Positions 8,469-57,400 of a stretch of 64,000 nucleotides of DNA are shown here, in pieces; the stretch's first letter is position 1, and the number at the start of each line of letters is the position of its first letter. Made by a program: the position numbers and the translations under genes. A model generated the notes under the pieces. That model worked only from the letters and a program-made list of their open reading frames with translations. It did not search any database and was not told the DNA's origin. The DNA comes from Nitrosopumilaceae archaeon. GTDB taxonomy: Archaea > Thermoproteota > Nitrososphaeria > Nitrososphaerales > Nitrosopumilaceae. The stretch is taken from assembly GCA_965214835.1 (NCBI GenBank), contig CBDCCK010000002.1, positions 1,504,001-1,568,000 on the forward strand. Reading direction: 5' to 3'.

Positions 8469-8475
8469 TCAGTAA

Positions 8476-8656
8476 CCATATGTGTCTCAAAAACGAAATT
8501 CAGATGGTGTCAAGATAAACGGCAGTGCAAACAGACAGATTACCGCAAAAAAGAGGGCACGTGTGAAATCAAAAGCAGTGCAGCAGCAGTATGTCGGCCT
8601 TGACGTGCACAAGGAGTCCATCCAGGTTGCGGTGATGGACAAGGACGGCAAGGTGC
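8476..8656 (+). mobile_element. Left-end fragment of the same IS110-family element as 43568-44986
   Basis: Near-identical to the reverse complement of about 44810-44986 (CCATATGTG...YVGLDVHKESIQ...KDGKV). Confidence 0.88.
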
Positions 8657-22334: not shown

Positions 22335-22903
22335 TTAGCCTAGACAGAGTCCTTGCTTAGGCCGGCGTTCTGGATTATCATCTTCCTCTTGTTTGTACCG
22401 TCCACGCTTATCAGGTTCGATTCTGCCGGGAACCGGATCTGCCAGGTCGCGCCCGCTGCACGTGCCGCACCTGTCAGGCACGTGGCTCATTTCCCGGGTC
22501 GGGCGCCTCTTGTGTGATACGCCCTTGTGTCCGGGTTTTTGGCCCGGCCTTGCCGGTGCCCTGCCCGGTTCCCTTGCCGCAGTCGCCTTTTTCTGCCTGG
22601 TCGGTATCGAGTTCTCCGATGACGGGCTGTGCGGGTTCTCATAAAATTCGATGCGGTGTTTGAGCTGCTTGATTTGTGACGCCTGCATCTAGATTAGTGC
22701 GGCATCATCGGCCTGCCTTATGGCAGATGCCATCCTCTCCATATCAAGCTCCTCCTGCGTCTTCTGAAGCTCCGCCCTAGCGCAGGCCATCTCTTTGCTT
22801 AATGCATTGAATTCCGAGGCTGTAGGCATGTATTTTCTTGGTATTGATAGTTTATAGATCAGACGGTCACGAAAAATTAACTAGGCAGGGGCTATCCTAT
22901 TAC
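22335..22903 (-). mobile_element. IS66 left-end remnant
   Basis: TIR GTAATAGGATAGCCCCTGCCTAG (22903-22881); MPTASEF...* ...FYENPHSPSS...PGHKG...CGTC, then truncated. Confidence 0.85.
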
Positions 22904-23208
22904 GCTATTTTTAATAACCGCACCCGACTTGTCACTATAATGAATGTACTATGTGCTGTCATGCGGCAGGCAGTTCCTGTCAAATCCCTCGTGATTGGTG
23001 GTGGTGGGGTGGATCTAGCTGATTTAACCATGTCTGCACTATTTTTCTGTCAAAGACATGGTGATTGTAGGGTGGGGAGGAGGATCAGTCTTGGCCCCTA
23101 CGTCGCGGTGGCAGGATGGCCTCACCGGGACGGTCGTGACGCACTAGTACATGATCCGGACTCTGGCGGCATGGGGGCATGCACGCAGGAGGGCCATACT
23201 AGCACGGC

Positions 23209-35784
<12,576 letters not shown>

Positions 35785-43170: not shown

Positions 43171-43288
43171 GTAACAGGTTAGCCCCTGCCTAGGTAGCAA
43201 TCAGGCGCGAATCTGCCTGCAGTTGTGATTTTCATGCCTGTCCGGCAAGGGACGCAACTCCAACTCTAGGCAGGGGCTAACCTGTTAC
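43171..43288. mobile_element. IS66-derived MITE (118 bp)
   Basis: Perfect 23 bp TIR GTAACAGGTTAGCCCCTGCCTAG. Confidence 0.88.
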
Positions 43289-43567
43289 TATTTGATGCGT
43301 TGCTCGAGCTGCCTGTTTTCTGCCGTCAGCGCCGCGATTTGTGCGGCAGAGGCGGCCCTGTCGGATTCGCATCCTGCCTTCTCGGCGGCAAGATCCTCCT
43401 GCGTCTTCTGAAGCTTGCCTTGCGTCTTCTGATGCTCCGCTTTTTCGCGGGCAAGCTCCCTGTATAGTGCCTTGAATTCCGAGGTTGTATGCATGTATTT
43501 TCTTGGTATTGATAGTTTATAGATCAGACGGTTGCAAAAAATTAACTAGGCAGGGGCTATCCTATTA
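43289..43567 (-). mobile_element. IS66 left-end remnant, paralog of about 22700-22903, with its TIR split by IS110
   Basis: MHTTSEFKALYRELA... and TIR body CTAGGCAGGGGCTATCCTATTA. Confidence 0.85.
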
Positions 43568-43652
43568 TCTATGTGTCGTGTTTATAAGGATTCCACGCGC
43601 AACTGGGTTGTGAGGCATGGCCTTGGCTGGGGGTCTTTCCTGACAATCACAA

Positions 43653-43781
43653 GATGAAGGTCGGACATTTATCTATACGAGGATCTCCCTCAGCACCATT
43701 CTTCATCCATTTATTAGAACTGTTCTGCAGTTACTAAACGAGGATCTCCCTCAACTAGGATAACGCAGATTAAAGTTCTAA
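43653..43781 (-). ncRNA. Predicted bridge/seek RNA of IS110 element A (right-end encoded)
   Basis: Two copies of ACGAGGATCTCCCTCA (43677-92, 43738-53) inside stems GATGAAG/CTTCATC and TTAGAACT/AGTTCTAA; loop strands match donor and target. Confidence 0.75.
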
Positions 43782-43876
43782 CCGTAATGATGACGACACT
43801 CATTTCACATATCCCAATGCATGGCGGATCGCCGGGAGGGCGGCAGGGCAGGAGGTGAGACAACAGCACGTCTCCT

Positions 43877-44980
43877 TTACGCACCCCCTATGCACTGATT
43901 GAAGGTCATCTGCTTCTTTAGCATCCAGTATGATATGCGCAGCAGCTTGGATGCGGCAGCCACCGTAGCCTTGGACCTTCCTCTCCTCTTTGCAAGCCTC
44001 TTGTAAAAGACAGATACCGGCGAGCCTGGCGGCGCGTATCTTACGTGGCTGTGCACCGACTCCACCAGGAACCATCTCATCATGGGGCTGCCCCTCTTTG
44101 TTATCCTGCCATAGTGGACGGTGTCTGCAGAGTTTCTCACCGATGACACCAGTCCTGCATACGCGCACAGCTTGTGCGAGTCGGCAAACCTGTCAACGCC
44201 GTCTATCTCCGATGCAACAGTCAGCGCGGTGTACCTGCCAAATCCCGGAGTCGACGACAGCAAGACGGCATCCGGGCTGTCGGCTATTGCGTCCTTGATG
44301 CGCAGATCAGCGCGTGCCATCCTGTCGTTTATAGAGTCAATTATGCCCAGCCTGTCATCTATCCTAAAATTGCCCAGCCTTCTCACCCTTGAGATCCACG
44401 GTGCCGAGAACGGGTCTCCTCTTATCTGTATCCTGTTTTGCAGCAGTATTGCGTGTATCTGGTTCTTTAGTATGGTTCTTGACTGCACCATCTTTGCGCG
44501 GTGCCTAGTCAGCTGCCTGTTCTGTACCGTCTTGCTAGATGGAGCATAGCACGCAGATATGTATCCTCCCCTGAGAAGATCTGCCAGGATCTGCGCGTCT
44601 ACCTTGTCGGTCTTTTTCTTTGACGTTGCAATGACCTTGGTCTCAAACGGGTTTGAGAGGATCACGTCTTGCTTGAGATCGTCTGCAATGAACCTGAACA
44701 GCCCGTACCACACGGAGGACGACTCCATGACGCACTTGGCGTTCTCCGGGATCCTTGCAAACGCCTTCCTTATCTCGCTGTCCCTGTTGCGGATTCTTGT
44801 GTTGCTCAGCACCTTGCCGTCCTTGTCCATCACTGCAATCTGGATGGACTCCTTGTGCACGTCCAGGCCGACATACTGCTGTTGCACCGCCTTTTTCATA
44901 CGTATCCTTTTTTTTGAGGCAATCTGTTTGTTTGCATTGCCTTTTATTCTGGCACCATCTGAATTTCGTTTTTGAGGCAC
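43877..44980 (-). CDS. IS110-family DEDD recombinase
   Basis: VGLDVHK, VMESS, KTDKVDA, YAGL..SVRNSA, GRITKRG. Confidence 0.95.
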   Translation of the reverse strand: MPQKRNSDGARIKGNANKQIASKKRIRMKKAVQQQYVGLDVHKESIQIAVMDKDGKVLSNTRIRNRDSEIRKAFARIPENAKCVMESSSVWYGLFRFIADDLKQDVILSNPFETKVIATSKKKTDKVDAQILADLLRGGYISACYAPSSKTVQNRQLTRHRAKMVQSRTILKNQIHAILLQNRIQIRGDPFSAPWISRVRRLGNFRIDDRLGIIDSINDRMARADLRIKDAIADSPDAVLLSSTPGFGRYTALTVASEIDGVDRFADSHKLCAYAGLVSSVRNSADTVHYGRITKRGSPMMRWFLVESVHSHVRYAPPGSPVSVFYKRLAKRRGRSKATVAAASKLLRISYWMLKKQMTFNQCIGGA

Positions 44981-45026
44981 ATATGGTTACGCTATTTTTA
45001 ATAACCGCACCCGACTTGTCACTATA

Positions 45027-45353
45027 ATGAATGTACTATGTGCTGTCATGCGGCAGGCAGTTCCTGTCAAATCCCTCGTGATTGGTGGTGGTGGGGGGGT
45101 GGATCTGGCTGATTTGGCCATGCCTGCCGTGCCTTTTTACTGCCGGGATCCAGGTGACTGCTGGGTGGGGGAAAGGATCGACTCTAGCCCCGCCGTCGGG
45201 GAGGCAGGACGGCCTCGTCTGGTTCCTTACTGTATGGGGGCCGGTACGCAGCTAGACGGCATATGCACGACCCGCCGCAGGTGGCTTGTACAAGACGGTA
45301 AGCCAGGCTGCATGGTGGGGATCACACTCGAATCCGGAGGCGGTCTACCATAG
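45027..45353 (+). CDS. Putative leader ORF upstream of giant protein 2
   Basis: Paralog of 22940-23290. Confidence 0.4.
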   Translation: MNVLCAVMRQAVPVKSLVIGGGGGVDLADLAMPAVPFYCRDPGDCWVGERIDSSPAVGEAGRPRLVPYCMGAGTQLDGICTTRRRWLVQDGKPGCMVGITLESGGGLP

Positions 45354-45412: not shown

Positions 45413-48400
45413 GTGCTCATTGCGGTTGCCGTCTCGGGCCTGATATCCGCGGACGGTCTGCAGGAGGCACACGCGCAAAGCCAGCCCGTCAATGTGACCG
45501 CTACCGGTAGTCTGGGAGATAACAACGCCCTGCTGCTTGGCGGCGCCAACGGCGTGGATGTCTTTACAATGGGTGGCAAGACCTACGCGGCAATAGTCTC
45601 CAGAGTCGATGACGGTCTCCAGATAGTAGACGTGTCAAACCCCGCATCGCCTGGTGCCGTCGGACAGCTAAGCGACACCGACTCCCTGCTGCTTGACGGC
45701 GCCCGTGCCGTGGACGTCTTCAAGATAGGCGCCAATACCTACGCCGCAGTAGCCTCCTCTGATGATGACGGTCTCCAGATTGTAGACGTGTCAGACCCCG
45801 CATCGCCTGATGCCGTCGGACAGCTAAACGACACCGACTCCCTGCTGGACGGCGCACACGACGTGGACGTCTTCACGATAGGTGCCAATACCTATGCTGC
45901 AGTCGCTTCTAATGAAGACGACGCCCTTCAGCTTGTAGATGTCACCGATCCTGCCAGTCCGGCCGCCGCCGGGAATCTGAACGATACGGGCTCCAGAGAG
46001 CTTGGTGGCGCCTTCGGCGTGGCCGTCTTCAAGATAGGCGACAACACCTACGCCGCAGTGTCCTCCTATAACGATGACGGCCTCCAGATTGTAGACGTCA
46101 CCAACCCTGCCAGTCCGGTAGCGGTCGGGCGACTGGCAGATGGAGCACTGCTTTTTGGCGCCCGCTATGTGGACACCTTTACAATAACCGACGGCAGTGG
46201 AATCAACACCTACGCCGTGGTGACCATCGAGCACAGCGACGGCGAAGGCGGCCTTCAGCTGGTCGACATCACCGATCCGACCATGCCTACGGCCGCTGGT
46301 CGACTGCTAACCGACGGCTCCAGTCTGTTTAACCTCCCAGAAGGCGTGACAGTCTTTAAAATTGGACAGAGCACCTACGCAGCGGTGGCTTCTGATGACA
46401 GCGACGGCATCCAGATTGTAGATGTCTCCGATCCTGCCGCTCCGGCAGTGGCAGGCCATCTGAGGGATGGCGGTGATCTGAAGCTTGCCGGTTCTTGGGA
46501 CGTGGATGTCTTTACCATAAACGGCCGCACCTACGCCGCAGTCGCTTCTAATCGCGACGGCCTCCAGCTAATGAGGCTGGAAGACAGCACGCCGCCGGCA
46601 TTCGAGTCCGCCACACTGGACAGGTACGCGGGGACCATGACTGTAACCTTCAGCGAGGCCATAGACGTCTCTGAGACCGATCTGTCCATGCTGTATGTCA
46701 GCGACGATGGCCAGACAAACGCCGTCTCGCTGGCAGGTGCCGACTTTGACGACACGGCAGCCGACTCGGAGACGATATGGCTGATACTCACACCTGCACA
46801 GCTGGCAGCGATCGTTCCGATGGATACCCCGCAGCTTGACATCGCAGCAGGCGCCGCATCTGACCTATCCGAGAATCTGATAGATGCTGCAGCCGACAAC
46901 CCGATCACGACGGCCAGCCCGGACAGCCCGATCCCCTCCGGAAGGCTGGCCCACGACAGCACCTTGCTGCTAGACTTCCCCCGCGGTATGGATACCTTTA
47001 GGATAGGAGAGGACATCTACGCGGCAGTAACCTACAACGGCGGGACCAACTCCGGCCTGCAGACAATCAACGTCACCGATCCTGCCAGTCCGACTGCCGT
47101 CGGGAAGATCAAGTCCAGAACTGCTTTCTTTGGAGATACTCCCATATTTCTGAGCACTGCCCAAGAAGTGGACATCTTTACAATCGGTAACAACACCTAC
47201 GCGGCGGTGGTCGCCTTCCGTTCTGAAGCCCTGCAGATAATCAACGTCACCGATCCCTCAAGTCTGGTCGAGGCCGGGCATTTGTCAAACTCTGGTTCAG
47301 ACGTGCGGTTAAGCGGTGCCACAGACGTGGGCATTTTTACAATCGGCAGCAGCACCTACGCCGCAGTCGCCTCCTTTTCTGACAACACCCTACAGATTGT
47401 AAATGTTACAGATCCCGACAATCCGGCAGCGGCCGGGCAGCTGACAGACACCGACGATCTGTTGCTCAATCAGGCCTCTGACGTAGCCATCTTCACGATA
47501 GGCAGCAGCACCTACGCCGCAGTCACTTCATCCTTCGACGACGGACTCCAGATTGTAAATGTTACAGATCCCGACGACCCTGTTGCGGCCGGGAATCTGG
47601 CAGACACCACCTCTCTGCAGCTTCGCGATGCCACGGCCGTGGACGTCTTCACGATAGACGACTCCACCTACGCCGCAGTGACCACATTTGGCAACGAGGG
47701 CCTACAGATTGTAAATGTTACAGATCCCGACAATCCGGCAGCGGCCGGGAATCTGGCAGACACCGACGACCTGCTGCTTGACGGCCCCAGAGACGTGACC
47801 GTCCTTACCATAGGCAGCTCCACCTACGCCGTAGCTCCCTCCGCCAATGACGGCGGACTCCAGATTGTAAATGTTACAGATCCCGACAATCCGGCAGCGG
47901 CCGGGAATCTGCCAGACACCGACGACCTGCTGCTTGACAGCACCCGTGGCGTGGCCGTGTTCATGATTGGTGGGAGTCCGTACGCCGCAGTGTCTGCCGA
48001 CACGGAAGGCATCCAGATAGTAAAGCTTGGCGAGGTTATAGACATGACTTCCAACAGTCTGCCGGTGGCACCGGCCGAGATGGCAATCACTCTAGAGGAC
48101 ACACCCATTACCATAACGCCGAATATATCGGATCCCGATACATCGGATACCCCGGCAATATCGACAGTATCTGATCCGCCAAACGGGACTGCAACACATG
48201 ATGATACTACCATAATTTACACCCCGGACCAGGACTATGATGGTACGGACACCTTCAGTTATACCGTAACTGACGGCACCGACACGACACAGGGCACCGT
48301 AACTGTAACTGTCGTGCGCGGCAACAACGACCCCGTCCTGGGAACGATAGGCGACCGGGCCGCTACGGTGGGAGTCCAGCTGACCATAACGCCTACCGTA

Positions 48401-51400
48401 ACTGACGCCGACACGACTGACACGCACACGTATTCCATCACGCGCGGCACGCTGCCGGCGGCTGCCGTGTTTTCCACATCTGACGGCAGCATCACCTGGA
48501 CGCCGGTTCAGGCAGACGCCGGGCAGACCCACGAGGTTACAATAACGGTAAACGACGGCCGCGGAGGCACCGACTCTGAGACCTTTGACATAGTGGCGGC
48601 CGAAGTGGATACCACCCCCCTGATCTCGGCTACCCCTGCCGGGCAGCTGCGTGATGGCGGGCCCAGACTGCTCACTACCGCCACAAGCCTGGACGTCTTC
48701 ACGATAGGCGATAAAACGTACGCGGCAGTCGCCTCGTATGGTGACGACGCCCTCCAGATAATCAACGTCACTGATCCAGACAGCCCATCCGCCGCCGGGC
48801 ATCTGGCGGACACGAACTCATTGCGGCTTGATGGTGCATACGGTGTGGATGTATTCACGATAGACGATAAAACGTACGCCGCAGTTGCCTCACATGGTGA
48901 CGACGCACTCCAGATTGTAAATGTTACAGATTCCGACAACCCGGAAGCTTCCGGGAGTGTGGAAGACACCGAGCCTGCAGGCGGGATCGACGATGAGCTG
49001 CTGCTTGAGAAATCCCGCGGCGTGGCCGTCTTTGTAATAGGTGACAAAACATATGCGGCCGTTACATCCTCCCGCGACAGAGGCCTCCAGATAATCAACG
49101 TTACCGATCCCGACAACCCGGCGCCCGCCGGGCAGCTGAAGGATACCGCGGGCGCCGGCGGGCTTTTGCTTGCCGGCCCTTGGGGCGTAGACGTCTTCAC
49201 AGTAGGAGGTTCCACTTATGCCGCAGTAGCATCATTTGCCGACAACGGCCTCCAGATTGTAGATGTTACCGATCCCGACAACCCGGCGCCCGCCGGGCAG
49301 CTGAAGGATACCGCGGGCGCCGGCGGGCTTTTGCTTGCCGGTTCCGTAGGAGTGGACACCTTTACGACCGCACACGGCACGTACGTGGCGGTGGCCTCGG
49401 AGAAAGACAACGGCCTCCAGATTGTAAACGTCACGGATCCGCGTAACCCGGCACCCGCCGGACATCTAGCAGATACAGAACCTGCAAGCGATGGTGACGA
49501 TGAGCTGCTACTTGAGAAATCCCGCGGCGTGGCCGTCTTTGTAATGGGCGATAACACGTACGCCACAGTCACTTCCTTTGCCGACAACGGCCTCCAGATT
49601 GTAGATGTCACCGATCCCGACAACCCGGCGCCCGCCGGGCAGCTGAAGGACACCGCGGGTGGCGGCGAGCTGCTGCTTGACCGTGCCTTCGGCGTGGACA
49701 TCTTTGCAGTAGGCGGTAACACCTACGCCGCGGTAGCCTCTCGGGCCGACAACGGCATCCAGATAGCGAGACTGAGCGACATCACGCCACCGGCATTCGC
49801 ATCCGCGGCACTCGACGAGGGCACGGGCACCATGACGATCACCTTCAGCGAGACCATAGACGTCTCCGAGACGGATCTGTCGATGCTGTACGTCAGCGAC
49901 ACGGGCGGGATCGACGAGGTAGCCCTGACGGGGGCGGCCTTTGACAGCAACGCCGCCGACTCTGCCACCATATCGCTTACGCTTACCCAGGCCCATCTGA
50001 ACCGGATCATCCAGATGGGAACCCCGCAGCTTGACATAGGAGCCGCCGCGGTATATGATCTCTTCGTAAACCACATAGGCGCAGTGCCTGACAACCCGAT
50101 CACGGTCACCGCCGATACCGTAAGGCCCACATTCGCATCCGCGGCACTCGGCGAGAGTACGGGCACCATGACGATCACCTTCAGTAAAACCATAGACGTC
50201 TCCGAGACGGATCTGTCGATGCTGTACGTCAGCGACACGGGCGGGATCGACGAGGTAGCCCTGACGGGGGCGGCCTTTGACAGCAACGCCGCCGACTCTG
50301 CCACCATATCGCTTACGCTTACCCAGTCCCATCTGAACCAGATTGCCCCTATGGTGACGCCACAGCTTGACATTAAAACAGGTGCCGTATTGGACCTGGC
50401 AGGAAACGACATAGACACGGCATCGGACAACCCGATCGACATCACAAAGCCCGAGTTCATATCTGCACGCCTCGGGAGTCTGGAAGACACGTCGTCCACG
50501 GAGCTTGAAGGCGCCAGCGGCGTGGCAGTCTTTACGGTAGACACCAACACCTACGCCGCAGTGGCCTCCTATGACGACGACGGCCTCCAGATTGTAGATG
50601 TATCGGATCCTGACAATCCGGCCGCCGCCGGCAGCCTGGGAGATGACACCACCAGGCTGCTTGAAGGCGCCAGCGGCGTGGCAGTATTTACGATAGGCAC
50701 CAACACCTACGCCGCAGTGGTCTCCGAAATCGACGACGGCCTCCAGATTGTAGATGTATCGGATCCTGACAATCCGGCCGCCGCCGGCAGCCTGGGAGAT
50801 GACACCACCAGGCTGCTTGAAGGCGCCAGCGGCGTGGCAGTCTTTACGGTAGACACCAACACCTACGCCGCAGTGGCCTCCTTTACAGACAACGGCCTCC
50901 AGATTGTAGATGTATCGGATCCTGACAATCCGGCCGCCGCCGGCAGCCTGGGAGATGACACCACCAGGCTGCTTGAAGGCGCCTATACCGCGGACGTCTT
51001 TACGATAGGCACCAGCACCTACATTGCAGTGGTCTCCGAAATCGACGACGGCCTCCAGATTGTAGATGTATCGGATCCTGACAATCCGGCCGCCGCCGGC
51101 AGCCTGGGAGATGACACCACCAGGCTGCTTGAAGGCGCCAGCGGCGTGGCAGTCTTTACGGTAGACACCAACACCTACGCCGCAGTGGCCTCCTTTACAG
51201 ACAACGGCCTCCAGATTGTAGATGTATCGGATCCTGACAATCCGGCCGCCGCCGGCAGCCTGGGAGATGACACCACCAGGCTGCTTGAAGGCGCCAGCGG
51301 CGTGGCAGTCTTTACGGTAGACACCAACACCTACGTTGCAGTGGCCTCCGAAACAGACAACGGCCTCCAGATTGTAGATGTATCGGATCCTGCCAATCCG

Positions 51401-54400
51401 ACCGATGCCGGCAGTCTGGGTGACACAAGTGATCTGCTGCTTGATGGCGCCTACGCCGCGGACGTCTTTACAATAGACAGCAACACCTACGCCGTAGTGG
51501 CCTCCTATGACGACCACGGCATCCAGCTAGTGAGGCTGGGCGCGGAGGCAGAGACGCCCAACAATCCGCCGGTAGCTCCTGATGATGCGGCAACCACACC
51601 AGAGGACACGGCTGTTATAATAACACCTGCCATATCGGATCCGGACGTGGCCGACACCCCGAGAATATCGGCAGTCGATGATCCGCCAAACGGGGCCGCC
51701 ACGCATGATGATACCACGATAACCTACACCCCTGATACTGACTATGAAGGCACCGACACCTTCGGATATACGATATCTGATGGAACAGACACGGCGCAGG
51801 GCACGATAACTGTAACCGTAACGCGCGACAACAACGATCCAGTCCTGGGTACCATAGGCAACCAGGCCGCGACGGTAGGCGTGCAGCTGACCATAACGCC
51901 TACCATAACTGATGACGACACGACCGACACGCACACGTACTCGATATCGCGCGGCACGCTGCCGGCAGCCGCCGTATTTTCCACATCTGACGGCACCCTC
52001 GTCTGGACGCCTGTACCGGCCGATGCCGGGCAGACCCATACGGTCACTATAACGGTAAATGACGGCCGCGGCGGCACCGATTCTGAGACATTTGACATAG
52101 CCGTGGGTGATGCTCCGCCCACACTCACGCTGACCCCGGTCGGGAATATAGGAGACAACCCGCAACTGCTACTTGACGGCGCCCACGACGTGGACACGTT
52201 CCAGATAGGCACCAACACATACGCCGCAGTGGTCTCCGAATCTGACAACGGCCTCCAGATTATAGACGTCACCGATCCCGACAATCCTACAGCCGCCGGG
52301 AGTCTGGGAGACACCTCGGACGAGCTGCTACTTGTCGGCGCCCGCGGCGTGGACATCTTCAAGATAGGCACCAACACATACGCCGCAGTGGCCTCCAATC
52401 ATGATGACGGCATCCAGATTGTAAACGTCACCGATCCCGACAACCTAACCGCCGCCGGCAGTCTGAAAGATGATGGCTCTAGGTTGCTTGACGGTGCCGT
52501 CAGCGTATCCGTCTTCAAGATAGGCGGCTCCACCTACGCCGCAGTGGCCTCCCACAATGAACACGGCATCCAGATTGTAAACGTCACCGATCCCGACAAT
52601 CCTGCCGCCGCCGGGAGTCTGGGAGATGGTGCACAAACGATTCTTAATGGCCCCCGCAGTGTAGATGTCTTCATGATAGGCGGCAGCACCTACGCCGCAG
52701 TAGCAGCCGAATCTAATAGTAACAACGGCCTCCAGATTGTAAACGTCACCGATCCCGACAATCCTGCCGCCGCCGGGAATCTAGGTGATGATACATCTAC
52801 GCTACTTCTCGGCGCCCGCGGAGTGGACACGTTCCAGATAGGCGCCAACACCTACGCCGCAGTGGCCTCCAACAGAGAGCACGGCCTCCAGATTGTAGAT
52901 GTCACCGATCCCGACAATCCTGCCGCCGCCGGGAATCTAGGTGATAATCCATCTACGCTACTTCGCAACGCCCGCGGAGTGGACACGTTCCAGATAGGCG
53001 CCAACACCTACGCCGCAGTAACCTCCAACAACGAAGACGGCCTCCAGATTGTAGACGTCACCGATCCCGACAGCCCCACCGCCGCCGGGAGTCTGGGAGA
53101 TGATGGTACTGGCGGTACCCTGCTGCTTGACGGCGCCGGCAGCGTGGCCGTCTTCAAGATAGGCGCCAACACCTACGCCGCAGTAACCTCCAACAGCGAT
53201 GACGGCCTCCAACTGGTGAGGCTGGACGAGGCAGCAGAGACTCCCAATGCCCCGCCTGTTGCGCCTGCTGCGACGGCGACCACTGCAGAGGACACGCCTG
53301 TAACCATAACGCCTGCAATATCGGATCCGGACACATCGGACACTCCTACAATATCGGCAGTAGAGAACCCGCCAAACGGGACTACCATTCATGATGGTAC
53401 CACCATAACTTACACGCCTGATGCTGATTATGAGGGCACGGACACCTTCGGATATACCGTATCTGACGGCACCGACACCGCACAGGGCACGATAACTGTA
53501 ACCATAACGCGCGACAACAACGACCCCGTCCTGGGTACCATAGGCGACCGGGCCGCGACGGTAGGCGTGCAGCTAACCATAACGCCTGCCGTAACCGACA
53601 CCGACACGACCGACACGCACACTTATTCCATAGCGCGCGGCACGCTGCCGGCAGCCGCCGTATTTTCCACATCTGATGGTACCCTCGTCTGGACGCCGGT
53701 TCAGGCAGACGCAGGGCAGACCCACACGGTTACAATAACGGTAAACGACGGCCGCGGAGGCACCGACTCGGAGACCTTTGATATAGTCGTGTCCGGCACG
53801 GACACCGCCCCACCCGCCTTTGAGTCTGCAACCCTCGACGAGGGCACGGGCGCCATGACCATAACCTTTGATGAGACAATAGACATATCGGCTACAAACC
53901 TCTCGCTGCTGTACGTCAGTGATGTAAACCAGGCAGATACGGTACCGTTGATAGGCGCCGCATTTGACTTTGGTTCTGCTGACGTCGAGACGCTTTCACT
54001 CACGCTCGTCCAGGCCCAGCTGGACGAGATAGCCCCGATGGGCACCCCGCAGCTCGATATTACGGCAGGCGCCGTCTCAGATATGGCGGGCAACCAGATA
54101 GCAGACTCGCCGGACAACCCGATCACGGTCACAGACACGACATCCAACAGCCCGCCGCTGGCACCCGCCGAGTCGGTGACCACCCCGGAGGATGTGCCTA
54201 TAACCATAACGCCTGCCATATCAGATCCCGACACATCGGACACCCCTATAATATCTGCAGTCGGGAATCCGCCAAACGGGGCCGTCACACATGACGATAC
54301 TACCATAACCTACACACCGGACCAGGACTTTGATGGTACGGACACCTTCGGATATACCGTATCTGACGGCACCGACACGGCACAGGGCACGATAACTGTG

Positions 54401-57400
54401 ACCGTCACGCGCGACAACAACAATCCCGTTCTGGGTACCATAGGCGACCAGGCCGCGACGGTAGGGGTGCAACTAACCATAACGCCTGCCGTAACTGATG
54501 CTGACACGACCGACACGCACACGTATTCCATAACGCGCGGTACGCTGCCAGCAGCTGCCGTATTTTCCACGTCTGATGGTACCCTCGTCTGGACGCCGGT
54601 TCAGGCAGACGCAGGGCAGACCCACACGGTCACCATAACGGTAAGTGATGGCCGGGGCGGCACCGACTCGGAGACCTTTGATATAGTCGTGGCCGGCAGG
54701 GACATCACCTCGCCCGCCTTTGAGTCTGCAACCCTCGACGAGGACACGGGCGCCATGACCATAACCTTTGATGAGACAATAGACATATCGGCTACAAATC
54801 TCTCACTGCTGTACGTCAGTGATGTAAACCAGGCAGATACGGTCTCGCTGACAGGCGCCGCATTTGACCTTGGTTCTGCTGACGTCGAGACCCTCTCACT
54901 TACGCTCGTCCAGGCCCAGCTGGACGAGATAGTCCCGATGGGAACCCCGCAGCTCGATATTACAGCAGGCGCCGTCTCAGACATACTGGGCAACCAGATA
55001 GCAGACTCGCCGGACAACCCGATCACGGTCACAGACACGACATCCAACAGCCCGCCGCTGGCACCCGCCGAGTCGGTGACCACCCCGGAGGATGTACCTA
55101 TAACCATAACGCCTGCCATATCAGATCCCGACACATCGGACACCCCTATAATATCTGCAGTCGATAACCCGCCAAACGGGACTGCCACACATGACGATAC
55201 CACCATAACCTATACGCCCGACTCTGACTTTGATGGTACGGACACGTTCGAATATACCGTATCTGACGGCACCGACTCTGTACAGGGCACGATAACTGTG
55301 ACCGTCACGCGCGACAACAACAATCCCGTCCTAGGTACGATAGGCGATCGGGCCGCAACACCGGACACACAGCTGGTCATAACGCCTGCTGTAACCGACG
55401 CCGATCCGACCGACACGCACACGTACTCGATATCGCGCGGCACGCTGCCGGCAGCTGCCACATTCAATACAACCGACGGCACCCTTGTCTGGACGCCCGT
55501 GCAGGCCGATGCCGGGCAGACCCACACGGTCACCATAACGGTAAGTGACGGCCGCGGAGGCACCGACTCGCAAACCTTCGATATAGTCGTGGCCGATACC
55601 GACCCTCCCGCGATCGAGATAACTCCAACCGGGAATCTGGGAGATAACAGTACCTTACTGCTTGGAGGCCCCTACGATGTAGCCGTCTTCATGGTAGGCG
55701 CCAACACCTACGCCGCAGTGGCCTCCGATGATGACAACGCCCTCCAGATTGTAGACGTCACCGATCCTTCCAGACCCACCGCCGCAGGAAGCCTGGGAGA
55801 TAACAGCACCTTGAAGCTTAACAGCGCCCGTAATGTGGACATCTTCACTAAAGACGGCAGCACCTACGCCGCAATCACTTCGTTCACTGACAACGCCCTC
55901 CAGATTGTAGACGTCACCGATCCTGCCAGTCCCGCCGCCGCAGGAAGCCTGGGAGATAACAGCACCTTGCATCTTGAAGGCGCCTTAGGCGTGGACGTCT
56001 TCACGATAGGCGCCAACACCTACGCCGCAGTGGCCTCACACTACGAGTACGCCCTCCAGATTGTAGACATCACCAATCCTGACAGTCTTACCGCCGCCGG
56101 CAATCTGCAGGATTTGGTGAGTGGCGACACCTTGCATCTTGAAGGCGCCTTCGGTGTGGACGTCTTCATGATAGGCGCCAGCACCTACGCCGCAGTGGCC
56201 TCCTTTGATGCCTCCGCCCTCCAGATTGTAGACATCACCAATCCTGCCAGTCCAACCGCCGCAGGAAGTCTGAGAGATAACAACACCTTGGAGCTTGGCG
56301 GCGCCTACGATGTAGCCGTCTTCACGATAGGCGCCAACACCTACGCCGCAGTGACCGCCTTAAATGACGACGGCCTCCAGATTGTAGACATCACCAATCC
56401 TGCCAGACCTGTTGCCGCCGGGAATCTGGGAGATAACAACACCCTGCTGCTTGACGGCGCCTTCGGTGTGGACGCCTTCACGATAGGCGCCAACACCTAC
56501 GCCGCAGTGGCCGCCTTAAATGACAACGGCCTCCAGATTGTAGACGTCACCGATCCTGCCAGTCCCGCCGCCGCAGGAAGCCTGGGCGATAACAACACCC
56601 TACTGCTTGACGGTGCCCGCGGCGTGGATACATTCACGATAGGCACCAACACCTACGCCGCAGTAGCCTCCGATGATGACAACGGCCTCCAGCTAGTGAG
56701 GCTGGGAGCGGATGCAGAGGCTCCCAACAGCCCACCTGTTGCGCCTGACGAGACGGCAACCACTGCAGAGGATACGCCTGTAACCATAACGCCTGCCATA
56801 TCGGATCCCGACGCATCTGACACCCCGGTAATATCGGCAGTCGAGAACCCGTCAAACGGGGCCGCCACACATGATGGTACCGCCATAACCTACACCCCGG
56901 ATACTGACTATGATGGTACGGACACCTTCGGATATACCGTATCTGACGGCACCGACACGACACGGGGCACCATAACGATAACCGTAACGCGCGACAACAA
57001 CGCCCCGGTTCTGGGAACAATAGGAGACCAGGCCGCCGAGCCGGACGTCCAACTGACCATAACGCCCACGGTAACCGATGCCGACACGACTGATACTCAC
57101 ACGTATTCCATCACGCGCGGCACGCTGCCGGCAGCTGCCGCATTCAATACAACCGACGGCACCCTCGTCTGGACGCCCGTGCAGGCCGATGCCGGGCAGA
57201 CCCACACGGTTACAATAATGGTTGATGACGGCCGCGGCGGCACCGACTCGCAAACCTTTGATATAGTAGTGGCCGACGGGGACGCCGTCACACTGACTCC
57301 GGTCGGGAGCATAGGCAACGGCCCGCAGCTGCTGCTTGATCTCCCGCGCGGCGTGGACGTCTTTACGATAGGCGGCAACACCTACGCCGCAGTGGCCTCC

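What the first reader, a model, noticed from the sequence alone, without database searches (positions are those of the whole stretch)
43558..44990. Intact archaeal IS110 with a readable two-loop bridge RNA and its empty target site in the same window
Seen: 22891-22910 (GCTATCCTA-TTA-CGCT) is the unoccupied allele, so the element ends are exact. In element orientation the target is AGCG-TAA-TAGGATA and the inferred circle junction is ATAGA-TAA-CCAT. The non-coding right end has two modules around an identical hairpin GAGG-GAGAT-CCTC. Module 1 (43714-43781) carries TATCCTA, which is 7/7 complementary to the right target, and TTAGTAAC, which matches GTAA here and 7/8 of TCAGTAAC at the second insertion (8469-8476). 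Module 2 (43653-43707) carries ATAGATAA, 8/8 identical to left donor plus core, and ATGGT, complementary to the right donor. Established: IS110/IS1111 recombinases use bridge/seek RNAs with target- and donor-binding loops. Inferred: this is a compact (about 130 nt) programmable thaumarchaeal bridge recombinase. The two loops differ by about 1 nt in register relative to the core, which I cannot explain.
Basis: partly seen in the sequence, partly recalled or inferred. Interest (0 to 1): 0.88.

Follow-up and report, generated by a model that had tools for sequence, protein, structure and literature searches.

The report
Archaeal IS1111-type element with bridge RNA
This is a mobile DNA element of an ammonia-oxidising-type archaeon that carries, behind its recombinase gene, a small two-loop guide RNA whose loops spell out its own ends and its insertion site, an archaeal member of the recently discovered bridge-RNA recombinases.

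Summary
A 1,420-bp IS110-family element lies on the minus strand at 43568-44987 with a TA core on each side. It has a 340-aa DEDD recombinase gene and a 132-nt two-module RNA gene (43652-43783) in its 3' end.

I built a covariance model and found 62 homologous RNA genes in related archaeal genomes. The five helices are 94.4% paired, against 36-50% in slid controls, and 18 of 27 pairs show compensatory changes.

The module-1 loop strands covary with the DNA flanking each insertion, on both sides (0 of 20,000 permutations each). Module 2 matches the element's own ends. A sister genome shows a single compensatory change: guide TAACCTA with target TAGGTTA, against TATCCTA with TAGGATA here.

- The core is TA, not TAA.
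- The "empty allele" is a paralogous copy of a repeated intergenic motif.
- The "second insertion" is a 182-nt left-end fragment.
- The 1-nt register shift arises because the donor loop is one base longer next to its hairpin on both strands.

No RNA data exist. This copy has a weak left-target match (2 of 5) and a Pro-to-Ser change at a conserved site.

Verdict: a real, well-supported new member of a known kind.

The parts
43568..44987 (-). Body of the insertion sequence (1,420 bp). The left end starts ACCATATGTG at 44987 and the right end finishes CACATAGA at 43568.
   Evidence: Comparison with the unoccupied paralogous site. The same ends occur in copies B and D and in 11 left-end and 5 right-end copies in the genome.
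44988..44989 (-). Core dinucleotide TA at the left junction (left target - TA - left end).
   Evidence: The 48 left junctions all carry TA here, but the script kept only candidates with TA, so that count is by construction.
43566..43567 (-). Core dinucleotide TA at the right junction (right end - TA - right target ATAGGATAG...).
   Evidence: TA follows the right end in 37 of 41 events.
43877..44899 (-). Recombinase gene, 340 aa from ATG 44899 plus stop codon. It has a DEDD RuvC-like domain and a Tnp domain.
   Evidence: Pfam PF01548 and PF02371. NCBIfam NF033542 scores 221 bits against a cutoff of 140. It matches IS621 (8wt6, E 6e-11) and ISCro4. E59, D98, D101 and S257 are invariant in 33 homologues, and S252 replaces a Pro present in 32 of 33.
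44900..44987 (-). Short left non-coding end (88 nt). It holds the subterminal repeat CATATGTG (44978-44985).
44951..44961 (-). CAGATGGTGCC, a second copy of the 5' strand of the donor loop, inside the left end. Function unknown.
   Evidence: The last 7 nt of the donor-loop 5' strand recur exactly in the left end in 25 of 38 distinct elements, against 26 of 1,302 mismatched pairs.
43652..43783 (-). Bridge/seek RNA gene (132 nt). It consists of two stem-loop modules, each an internal loop capped by a hairpin.
   Evidence: Covariance model R1 scores 121 bits here.
43754..43763 (-). Target loop, 5' strand, UUAUCCUAGU. This is the right-target guide and pairs with the top strand of A-x-TAGGATA right of the core.
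   Evidence: Here 7/7 plus the core A match. Family-wide covariation gives 0 of 20,000 permutations.
43739..43753 (-). Capping hairpin of the target loop, UGAGG-GAGAU-CCUCG.
   Evidence: helix 3 is 82.9% paired, and 4 of 5 pairs show double changes.
43730..43738 (-). Target loop, 3' strand, UUUAG-UA-AC. It reads left-target guide, then core, then two bases equal to the first two of the left end (handshake-like).
   Evidence: Family-wide, the 5 nt beside the core match the left flank at a mean of 3.50 of 5, against 1.27 for mismatched pairs. The last two bases equal the start of the left end in 38 of 41 and 32 of 41 events. In this copy only 2 of 5 match.
43693..43703 (-). Donor loop, 5' strand, AAGAAUGGUGC. 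AUGGU pairs with ACCAT at the start of the left end.
   Evidence: The mean is 4.42 of 5 against 3.23 for pairs whose left-end start differs.
43678..43692 (-). Capping hairpin of the donor loop, identical to the first hairpin in this copy.
   Evidence: helix 5 is 98.4% paired.
43668..43677 (-). Donor loop, 3' strand, UAUAGA-UA-AA. AUAGA-UA equals the last five bases of the right end plus the core.
   Evidence: All 26 of 26 match 5/5, but the right ends were located with this motif, so the count is partly circular.
43663..43708 (-). Donor module including its basal stem GGAUG/UGUCC.
   Evidence: Helix 4 is 98.4% paired, with 3 of 5 pairs showing double changes, for example GCGCC/GGCGU in a distant relative.
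43568..43651 (-). Right-end tail. It holds a conserved motif (family consensus CTAGCGAAAGCYATGC; here CCAGCCAAGGCCATGC), a TATA-like box CTTATAAA (43581-43588) pointing out of the element, and the subterminal repeat CACATAGA (43568-43575).
   Evidence: Alignment of 42 tails. A strict TT[TA]A[TA]A[AT] box lies 20-22 nt before the core in 21 of 39 distinct tails.
22891..22906 (+). Unoccupied paralogous copy of the target, GCTATCCTA-TTA-CGCT.
   Evidence: It is one of 14 TANTAGGATA sites in the genome.
8473..8656 (+). Truncated left-end fragment of a related copy: core TA plus 182 nt, 88% identical.

Best explanation
This is an IS1111-type member of the IS110 family in a thaumarchaeal (Nitrososphaeria) genome. 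It moves by RNA-guided recombination.

The RNA: the 3' non-coding end encodes a bridge/seek RNA of about 132 nt. It is probably made as the 3' part of the recombinase transcript. It folds into two tandem modules, each an internal loop capped by a hairpin.

The target loop (first module):
- Its 5' strand pairs with the top strand just right of the insertion point, from the second core base onward.
- Its 3' strand has the same sequence as the five bases left of the insertion point plus the core TA, so it pairs with the bottom strand.
- It ends in two bases that match the first two bases of the element, like the handshake guides of IS621.

The donor loop (second module) does the same for the joined ends of the excised circle, ...CACATAGA-TA-ACCATATGTG...

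The reaction: a DEDD/serine recombinase tetramer would hold both loops and exchange strands at the shared TA.

The target: this copy's guide aims at GTA-A-TAGGATA, part of a repeated intergenic motif of the genome.

What is shown:
- The protein belongs to the IS110 family.
- The element ends are exact.
- The RNA structure is conserved, with compensatory changes.
- Loops and flanks covary.

What is inferred:
- Transcription of the RNA.
- Circle formation.
- Binding of the RNA by the recombinase.
- The chemistry of strand exchange.
For: Protein:
- Pfam, NCBIfam and PDB matches, with E59, D98, D101 and S257 conserved.

Ends:
- An exact unoccupied paralogous site.

RNA structure (62 homologous RNA genes, 50 distinct):
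- 94.4% of cells are paired, against 36.3-49.6% when partners are slid.
- 18 of 27 pairs have changes on both sides.
- 0 of 500 shuffles reach the observed values.
- Conserved G-U pairs exist only on this strand.

Right-target guide:
- The longest match outside the core averages 5.25 against 2.47 for mismatched pairs.
- Runs of 7 or more occur in 19 of 52 events, against 5 of 2,600.
- 0 of 20,000 permutations over 37 distinct guides reach the observed sum.

Left-target guide:
- A mean of 3.50 of 5 against 1.27.
- 5 of 5 in 12 of 48 events, against 0 of 2,210.
- 0 of 20,000 permutations over 33 guides.

Evidence close to this copy:
- Near-identical copies A, B and D differ at 6 of 19 target-loop positions but at 7 of 113 elsewhere (Fisher p 0.0037).
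- Each of their guides fits its own flank: A 7 of 7, D 6 of 7, B 4 of 7 (by eye; longest runs of 7, 6 and 4).
- A sister genome pairs guide TAACCTA with target TAGGTTAGCCCCT, against TATCCTA with TAGGATAGCCCCT here.
- A right-end remnant sits at a second copy of the same target motif.

Agreement with published IS1111 features:
- The long non-coding region lies downstream of the gene.
- The top-strand match lies 5' of the bottom-strand match (PMC11187229, sections 6 and 9).
- The bridge RNA lies in the right end for IS1111-group elements (PMC11208160, passages).
Against: - No transcript evidence exists. No RNA run was listed, and only DNA contigs could be laid.
- In this copy the left-target guide matches only 2 of 5 positions.
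- This recombinase has Ser at position 252, where 32 of 33 homologues have Pro in the conserved GL-P----S motif. It also has four other departures from positions at least 90% conserved.
- Eight of 52 right-side events have runs of 2 or less, and 11 of 48 left-side events have 2 or fewer matches of 5.
- The alignment used for pair counts was fitted to the model's structure, which leans towards it.
- The right ends were located with the donor-loop motif, so the perfect left-donor match is partly circular.
- No circle junction was seen in the contigs.
Confidence: 0.88

Rival explanations
1. The family works as described, but this particular copy is a decaying or inactive relic. Its open reading frame is intact, yet the recombinase is impaired and it no longer moves.
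For: - S252 replaces a Pro found in 32 of 33 homologues, next to the catalytic serine region.
- The left-target guide matches 2 of 5 positions.
- It is the only copy in the genome with both an intact gene and the RNA. Copy B has in-frame stops, C lacks the RNA, D is an internal deletion, and there are many left-end-only fragments.
- It carries roughly 85-96 extra bases between the stop codon and the RNA gene that relatives lack.
Against: - The full-length ORF has all catalytic residues.
- The RNA scores as high as any homologue, 121 bits.
- The right-target guide still fits its flank perfectly.
- All eleven left junctions in this genome share little beyond G-TA, so a short left match may be normal for this subfamily.
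Confidence: 0.35
2. The two modules are protein-binding DNA repeats in the right end, or a DNA hairpin, rather than an RNA. On this view the similarity to the flanks reflects protein-read target preference.
For: No RNA evidence is available. The modules are tandem repeats with an identical 15-nt palindromic hairpin.
Against: - Helices keep pairing through compensatory changes.
- Near-invariant G-U pairs would be C-A mismatches on the other strand. Examples are columns 26-86, 115-187 and 130-176 in 47-48 of 50 rows.
- The loop strands, not the stems, covary base by base with flanks that differ between insertions.
- Homologous proteins have been solved bound to such RNAs.
Confidence: 0.03
3. The loop/flank matches are chance, or a by-product of paralogy between insertion sites.
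For: The target of this copy is a repeated motif, so some insertion sites are related. Copies within one genome are not independent.
Against: - Permutations over distinct guides only (37 and 33) never reach the observed sums, 0 of 20,000 each.
- The guides and flanks differ between families from many genomes.
Confidence: 0.01

Closest known systems
IS1111-family elements with seekRNA (ISEc11, ISKpn4, ISPa11, ISPst6; Siddiquee et al. 2024, PMC11187229)
   Same: - The long non-coding region lies downstream of the recombinase gene.
- There are subterminal inverted repeats.
- The recombinase is about 340 aa with a GL-P----S motif.
- The RNA segment matching the top strand lies 5' of the one matching the bottom strand.
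- The target is a repeated host sequence, as with ISPa11 and REP (the REP example is recalled, not from a call).
   Different: - The host is archaeal, and the recombinase is at most about 36% identical to any plasmid-borne relative.
- The core is TA.
- The conserved serine is followed by Ala, not Gly.
- The subterminal repeat is only 6 bp in this copy.
- A clear second (donor) loop has the same design as the target loop.
- The RNA sequence family is not detected in ISHvo10 or in the bacterial relatives tested.
IS621 and ISCro4 bridge recombinases with bridge RNA (Durrant et al. 2024, PMC11208160; Hiraizumi et al. 2026, PMC13626964)
   Same: - The domain architecture and catalytic residues are the same.
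- The RNA has a target-binding loop followed by a donor-binding loop, each a simple internal loop with two guide strands that read opposite DNA strands.
- Target and donor share a dinucleotide core.
- Two bases behave like handshake guides.
   Different: - The RNA lies in the right end rather than the left end.
- The order of the top- and bottom-strand guides within a loop is reversed.
- The core is TA instead of CT.
- The RNA is about 132 nt, against about 177 nt (the second figure is recalled).
- Protein similarity is low (E 6e-11, partial coverage).
- The promoter signals would have to be archaeal.
ISHvo10 family of Haloferax volcanii (ISfinder; described in PMC11187229 section 6 as a diverged IS1111 relative)
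   Same: It is an archaeal IS110-family element. It is among the closest annotated relatives of this recombinase, at 34% identity over 97% of the query.
   Different: Model R1 finds no match around ISHvo10 (best E 1.4 with filters off). The paper reports long non-coding regions on both sides of that element.
ISPpu9 with the Ssr9 small RNA (PMC12288879; only the abstract in the search listing was seen)
   Same: It is an IS110-family element that inserts into repetitive extragenic sequences, with a small RNA gene downstream of the transposase. Extra RNA-gene copies lie elsewhere in its genome. Here, model R1 finds 10 matches in this genome, and copy D, an internal deletion without a recombinase gene, keeps its RNA gene.
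   Different: It is bacterial, and its sequences were not compared here.

Membership tests
IS110 family (DEDD RNA-guided transposases) | [quoted passage not shown] | tested here: met
   Pfam E-values are 3e-26 and 1.1e-18, both above the curated cut-offs. NF033542 scores 221.3 bits against a cutoff of 140.
IS110 family (DEDD RNA-guided transposases) | Catalytic D-E-D-D and the conserved serine of the Tnp domain | tested here: met
   In the alignment to IS621 (8wt6), GLDVHKE aligns with GIDTAKE, MESSS with IEATG, KTDKVDA with KTDTVDA, and NSAD with ESGS. E59, D98, D101 and S257 are invariant in 33 homologues. The IS621 residue numbers are recalled, not taken from a call.
IS110 family (DEDD RNA-guided transposases) | No terminal inverted repeats or target duplication; a short core shared by the element junctions and the target | tested here: met
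   A single TA in the empty site corresponds to TA at both junctions. TA follows the right end in 37 of 41 events. TA at the 48 left junctions is by construction of the script.
IS1111 subgroup | The longer non-coding region lies downstream of the transposase gene | tested here: met
   The left end is 88 nt and the right end 309 nt (43568-43876). The criterion comes from PMC11187229 section 6 and PMC11208160 passages.
IS1111 subgroup | Subterminal inverted repeats of 7-17 bp | tested here: inconclusive
   This copy shares TATGTG (6 bp) between the ends. Relatives share ATGTGAAT (8-9 bp) (by eye).
IS1111 subgroup | Transposase of 330-350 aa with a GL-P----S(T)G motif | tested here: inconclusive
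   The length of 340 aa fits. The motif reads GLVSSVRNSA here and GLVPSVRNSA in relatives, so the serine is followed by Ala rather than Gly.
IS1111 subgroup | Phylogenetic placement with IS1111 transposases | not tested
   No IS1111 reference sequences were at hand. The only link is 34% identity to the ISHvo10 family, which PMC11187229 section 6 treats as a diverged IS1111 relative.
Bridge RNA / seekRNA | A structured non-coding RNA gene in a non-coding end of the element | tested here: met
   The structure is conserved with compensatory changes in 62 homologues. No Rfam family matches.
Bridge RNA / seekRNA | A target-binding loop whose two strands match opposite strands of the target on either side of the core, and covary with it | tested here: met
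Bridge RNA / seekRNA | A donor-binding loop matching the joined element ends | tested here: met
   In this copy ATAGA-TA matches 7/7 and ATGGT matches 5/5. Family-wide the right-donor mean is 4.42 of 5, against 3.23. The left-donor test is partly circular.
Bridge RNA / seekRNA | The RNA is transcribed, bound by the recombinase and required for recombination | not testable with these tools
   No RNA run was listed.

The most novel reading that the evidence does not exclude
A clade of IS1111-like elements spans several archaeal lineages: Nitrososphaeria, and by weaker model matches Archaeoglobi and Thermoplasmata. It uses a minimal, symmetric two-loop bridge RNA placed after the recombinase gene.

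Two features are not described for the bacterial systems:
- An outward-facing archaeal TATA-like box about 20 nt from the right end. After circle formation this would drive transcription across the junction into the recombinase gene and on into the bridge RNA.
- A covarying third copy of the donor-guide strand inside the left end. This could act as a decoy, a regulator or a split guide.

If so, the archaeal elements solve the expression and excision problem differently from IS621.
Probability: 0.2. Interest if true: 0.65.

Novelty: new member of a known kind. Interest (0 to 1): 0.5.

Why it matters
Bridge and seek RNAs were described in 2024 from bacterial elements. Here the same logic is documented in archaea, purely from natural variation.

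- One RNA family occurs in 25 of 151 genomes sampled from the class.
- Dozens of independent insertions each show a guide that fits its own site.
- Near-identical copies differ mainly in guide bases.

This gives a ready-made natural specificity table for a compact RNA of about 132 nt and a 340-aa recombinase. It also gives a covariance model for annotating such elements in archaeal genomes, where they are now labelled only "IS110 family transposase".

Weaker matches in Archaeoglobi point to possible thermophilic orthologues. The finding also explains insertions next to a repeated intergenic motif in this genome.

It does not overturn anything. Specialists already expect most IS1111 elements to carry such an RNA.

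Tried and rejected
Led nowhere:
- Rfam 15 scan of 43400-45200 at E up to 10: only two lncRNA noise hits.
- Single-sequence MFE folding closes the loops and does not show the functional structure. Its z-score of -2.78 says little by itself.
- No RNA holder was listed among sequencing runs.
- Laying four DNA runs gave a joint 43564 to 44987 (skipping 1,422 nt) in one contig each of X1 and X2. With only 24 nt on the shorter side, it cannot be told from the paralogous empty site at 22891. I do not count it as evidence of excision. No circle junction was seen.
- RNAalifold on the right-end tail gave no consensus structure.
- Model R1 on ISHvo10, a Halorubrum relative and a Sphingobium relative gave nothing (E 0.7 or worse).

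Considered and rejected:
- Copy D's left flank holds CGAGGATCT followed by ACATCAACG, which resembles the reverse complement of D's own target module. I considered guide acquisition from the flank. However, 9-nt or longer hairpin matches occur in 65 of 2,256 mismatched hairpin/flank pairs (2.9%). The guide-like part is explained by an internal repeat of the host gene. I reject this as chance.
Comparative data support GGATG/TGTCC instead.

Rows left out of the counts. Of 62 model hits:
- 5 had no right end found by my motif rule (L035, L090, L052, L081, L044).
- L043 was dropped from the right-side counts because its right end was mislocated.
- L041 was kept there (run 3), although its located end (AAGGT, followed by AA, not TA) departs from the rest.
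- 10 had no left end with TA found (L059, L073, L042, L022, L087, L026, L025, L041, L081, L044).
- Duplicates were collapsed, leaving 52 right events and 48 left events.

Literature:
- Two searches for thaumarchaeal bridge RNAs listed no paper on the subject. One search was loosely framed and shows little.
- Supplements are closed. Supplementary Table 5 of PMC11208160 lists bridge-RNA predictions for ISfinder elements and may already include archaeal ones.

Unpublished genome: the tally of 49 of 301 genomes with a recombinase homologue includes G282, which is marked unpublished. No locus was taken from it, and no other claim rests on it.
Full report
**What is there**

On the minus strand of the window lies a 1,420-bp element (43568-44987), bounded on each side by TA (43566-67 and 44988-89).
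- It has an 88-nt left end.
- Its 340-aa open reading frame runs from 44899 to 43877.
- Its non-coding right end is 309 nt.

The protein carries both Pfam domains of IS110-family transposases and passes the NCBIfam model "IS110 family RNA-guided transposase" (221 bits, cutoff 140). It also matches the solved IS621 and ISCro4 bridge recombinases (E 6e-11 and 9e-11).

In that alignment the acidic residues and the serine line up. E59, D98, D101 and S257 are invariant among 33 distinct homologues that I extracted. This copy departs from positions at least 90% conserved at five places. One is Ser252, where 32 of 33 homologues have Pro.

**The ends and the empty site**

The site at 22891-22906 reads GCTATCCTA-TTA-CGCT and matches the two flanks of the element exactly. 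It is not an allele. It is a paralogous intergenic region upstream of a second giant repeat-protein gene. It is 86% identical over 140 nt on the left. On the right it is 68% identical over about 1.2 kb; by eye the first ~100 nt look the same.

The deletion copy D has TAA at its left junction but TAC at its right junction. The script that located the left junctions kept only candidates with TA, so their TA is not an independent count. The core is therefore TA, and the third A is the first base of the left end (ACCATATGTG...).

The target is part of a repeated motif, GTA[AG]TAGGATAGCCCC..., and the genome has 14 TANTAGGATA sites. A 45-nt right-end remnant sits at another copy of that motif. So the same target type was used at least twice.

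**Other copies in the genome**
- B lies on the small contig and carries in-frame stops.
- C has a recombinase 85% identical and open, but its right end is replaced, and model R1 finds no RNA gene there.
- D is an internal deletion of about 580 bp that keeps both ends and the RNA gene.
- Eleven left-end junctions were found in all, counting those of A, B, C and D; the other seven belong to truncated left-end fragments.
- Two more distant subfamilies are present.
- Model R1 finds 10 matches in the genome.

**The RNA**

A protein search of 301 genomes of the same class found homologues in 49 (this count includes the unpublished G282). I took 15 right ends as a seed (A1). RNAalifold recovered the two-module design. 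I built model R1 and found 62 matches in 72 loci, each just downstream of the recombinase gene where one is present.

Structure counts on the resulting alignment:
- 94.4% of cells pair, against 36-50% when the 3' partners are slid by 1-3 columns.
- 18 of 27 pairs have changes on both sides.
- No shuffle of 500 reaches any of the five measures.
- Several nearly invariant G-U pairs exist only on this strand. This argues for an RNA made from the recombinase strand.
- The alignment is fitted to the model, which favours the structure somewhat. The slid controls share that bias and still fail.

The structure has two parts:
- Target module: outer stem P1 and stem P2 enclose an internal loop (10-nt 5' strand, 9-nt 3' strand) capped by a hairpin.
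- Donor module: a GGAUG/UGUCC stem encloses a second internal loop (11 and 10 nt) capped by a second hairpin.

In this window these parts lie at the coordinates listed under parts.

**Loops against flanks**

For each model hit I located the right end (the recurrence of the donor-loop motif after the subterminal repeat). I located the left end from the subterminal repeat with TA five bases upstream.

Right side:
- I compared the reverse complement of the target loop's 5' strand with the flank, ignoring the constant core.
- The longest exact run averages 5.25 in 52 distinct events, against 2.47 in 2,600 mismatched guide/flank pairs.
- Runs of 7 or more occur in 19 of 52 events, against 5 of 2,600.
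- With one event per distinct guide (37 guides), no permutation of 20,000 reaches the observed sum.

Left side:
- I compared the five bases of the 3' strand next to the core with the five bases left of the core.
- The mean is 3.50 matches in 48 events, against 1.27.
- Twelve events match 5 of 5, against none of 2,210 mismatched pairs.
- Over 33 guides, 0 of 20,000 permutations reach the observed sum.

Misses exist:
- 8 of 52 right events have runs of 2 or less.
- 11 of 48 left events have 2 or fewer matches.
- Some of these are visibly rearranged sites.

This copy itself has a perfect right match (7 of 7 plus the core A) but only 2 of 5 on the left. The eleven left junctions of this subfamily in the genome share little beyond G-TA.

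**Evidence close to home**

Copies A, B and D are about 90% identical, but they differ at four consecutive bases of the right-target guide and at two of the left-target guide. That is 6 of 19 target-loop positions, against 7 of 113 elsewhere (Fisher p 0.0037). Each guide fits its own flank: A 7 of 7, D 6 of 7, B 4 of 7 (by eye; longest runs of 7, 6 and 4).

D has no recombinase gene but has its own guide. It was probably moved in trans using its own RNA.

In a sister genome (recombinase 83% identical), three copies of the element carry the guide TTAACCTAGT and sit next to TA-A-TAGGTTAGCCCCT or TA-A-CAGGTTAGCCCCT. This is a single compensatory change relative to TTATCCTAGT and TAGGATAGCCCCT here.

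**The donor loop**

AUAGA-UA equals the right end plus the core, and AUGGU is complementary to ACCAT at the left end.
- Across 26 distinct combinations, the right-donor guide matches at a mean of 4.42 of 5, against 3.23 for pairs whose left-end start differs.
- The left-donor guide matches 5 of 5 in all 26. I used that motif to find the ends, so this count is partly circular.

**The register question**

The donor loop has one extra base beside its hairpin on both strands. Counted from the basal stems, the core sits two bases from the stem on the 3' strand of both loops.

Those last two bases of the target loop equal the first two bases of the left end in 38 of 41 and 32 of 41 events, including cases where the left end differs (AA, AT). 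They behave like the handshake guides described for IS621 (PMC13626964, abstract and section 4). The corresponding two bases of the donor loop match the right target less often (19 and 13 of 41).

**Comparison with what is known**

The position of the RNA after the gene matches the IS1111 type described by Siddiquee et al. (PMC11187229, sections 6, 9 and 13 read) and by Durrant et al. (PMC11208160, passages read). So does the order of guides, with the top-strand reader 5' of the bottom-strand reader.

Both loops here are simple internal loops, as in IS621. Durrant et al. note multi-loop donor sites in many IS1111 orthologues.

Archaeal IS110 recombinases as such are known: 662 in 2,835 archaeal genomes, according to Vaysset et al. 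(10.1101/2024.06.21.599552, passages read).

The nearest plasmid-borne relatives are only 34-36% identical and include the ISHvo10 family of Haloferax. R1 finds nothing there.

Where R1 does find matches:
- 25 of 151 sampled genomes of the class.
- Just after the recombinase gene in four Archaeoglobi contigs, weakly (E 6e-6 to 6e-5).
- One Thermoplasmata contig (E 6e-4).

Rfam 15 has no matching family. I found no paper linking bridge RNAs with these archaea in two searches. Supplements, which may list archaeal predictions, were closed.

**What remains open**
- No RNA data exist.
- The DNA contigs show neither a circle junction nor an unambiguous excision product.
- Whether this copy is active is uncertain, given Ser252 and the weak left match.

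Three conserved features are unexplained:
- A TATA-like box about 20 nt inside the right end, pointing outward. I read it as a candidate junction promoter.
- A conserved right-end motif, CTAGCGAAAGCYATGC.
- A copy of the donor-loop 5' strand inside the left end. It covaries with the loop, including at the two spacer bases that do not pair with the donor. It is exact in 25 of 38 elements, against 26 of 1,302 mismatched pairs.

**Verdict**

The observation and the interpretation are both right, with small corrections. It is a well-supported new member of a known kind, and an archaeal RNA family worth describing. It is not a new mechanism.

Noticed in passing
window 44951-44961 (minus strand), and the left ends of loci L009-L090: The left end holds a second copy of the donor-loop 5' strand (here CAGATGGTGCC). 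It covaries with the loop across 17 distinct 7-mers, including at bases that do not pair with the donor. It also forms an inverted repeat with the element's first 8 bases. Its function is unknown.
   Followed up: partly
window 43581-43588 (minus strand CTTATAAA): A TATA-like box preceded by A-rich bases lies 20-22 nt before the core at the right end and points out of the element. It is conserved across the family. It could be a junction promoter after circle formation, or it could read into the small ORF at 43288-43494.
   Followed up: partly
window 43600-43640 (minus strand): A conserved motif in the right-end tail, with family consensus CTAGCGAAAGCYATGC. It resembles the start of the left end. 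No structure or role was found.
   Followed up: partly
window 22880-22925 and 43540-43567; genome C2:396198, 479187, 1267420, 1662117, 1663848, 1666563, 2262121, 2344851, 2347149: A repeated, partly palindromic intergenic motif, GTA[AG]TAGGATAGCCCC[TC]GCCTAG..., serves as the insertion target. It is reminiscent of the REP-like targets of bacterial IS110 and IS1111 elements.
   Followed up: partly
window 45413-60019 (+), and about 22900-35000: A 4,868-aa ORF made of many internal repeats (FG-GAP/beta-propeller-like and cadherin-like by eye). A paralogous giant gene lies downstream of the empty site. The element sits in the divergent promoter region of one of them.
   Followed up: no
genome C2, at least 19 places (for example 504026, 749512, 1187522; window about 5027 and outside): Another repeat family appeared as a by-catch of the hairpin motif search. 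It begins TATTGATGACGTGCGCGATGAA... and contains TGAGGGAAATGCTCG. It is probably a different mobile element.
   Followed up: no
L094 (2944-3241) and L095 (right junction): In the sister genome, right ends are joined to the DNA that encodes the 3' strands of the target or donor loop of another copy. This DNA has the same sequence as left target plus core, or left donor plus core. These look like insertions into the guide-encoding DNA itself.
   Followed up: no
L075 (G036:C1, right end): The last ~53 nt of the right end are duplicated in tandem. The internal junction lies at TA-CATGT, which matches that element's own right-target guide. This suggests recombination at an internal pseudo-target.
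   Followed up: no
genome C2:1472858-1473969 (copy C, L002): This copy has a recombinase gene 85% identical and open, and an intact left end. Its right end is replaced by unrelated sequence, and model R1 finds no RNA gene there. It is a recombinase without its own guide RNA.
   Followed up: partly
window 43790-43878 (minus strand): This copy has a GC-rich stretch of roughly 85-96 nt between the stop codon and the RNA gene. Copies B and D and metagenome contigs lack it (joints 43789/43793 to 43879 in runs X1 and X3).
   Followed up: no
run X7, joint 43961 to 44765: A contig from another sample carries an internal 803-nt deletion of the recombinase gene while keeping the ends and the RNA gene, like copy D. 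Non-autonomous derivatives seem common.
   Followed up: no
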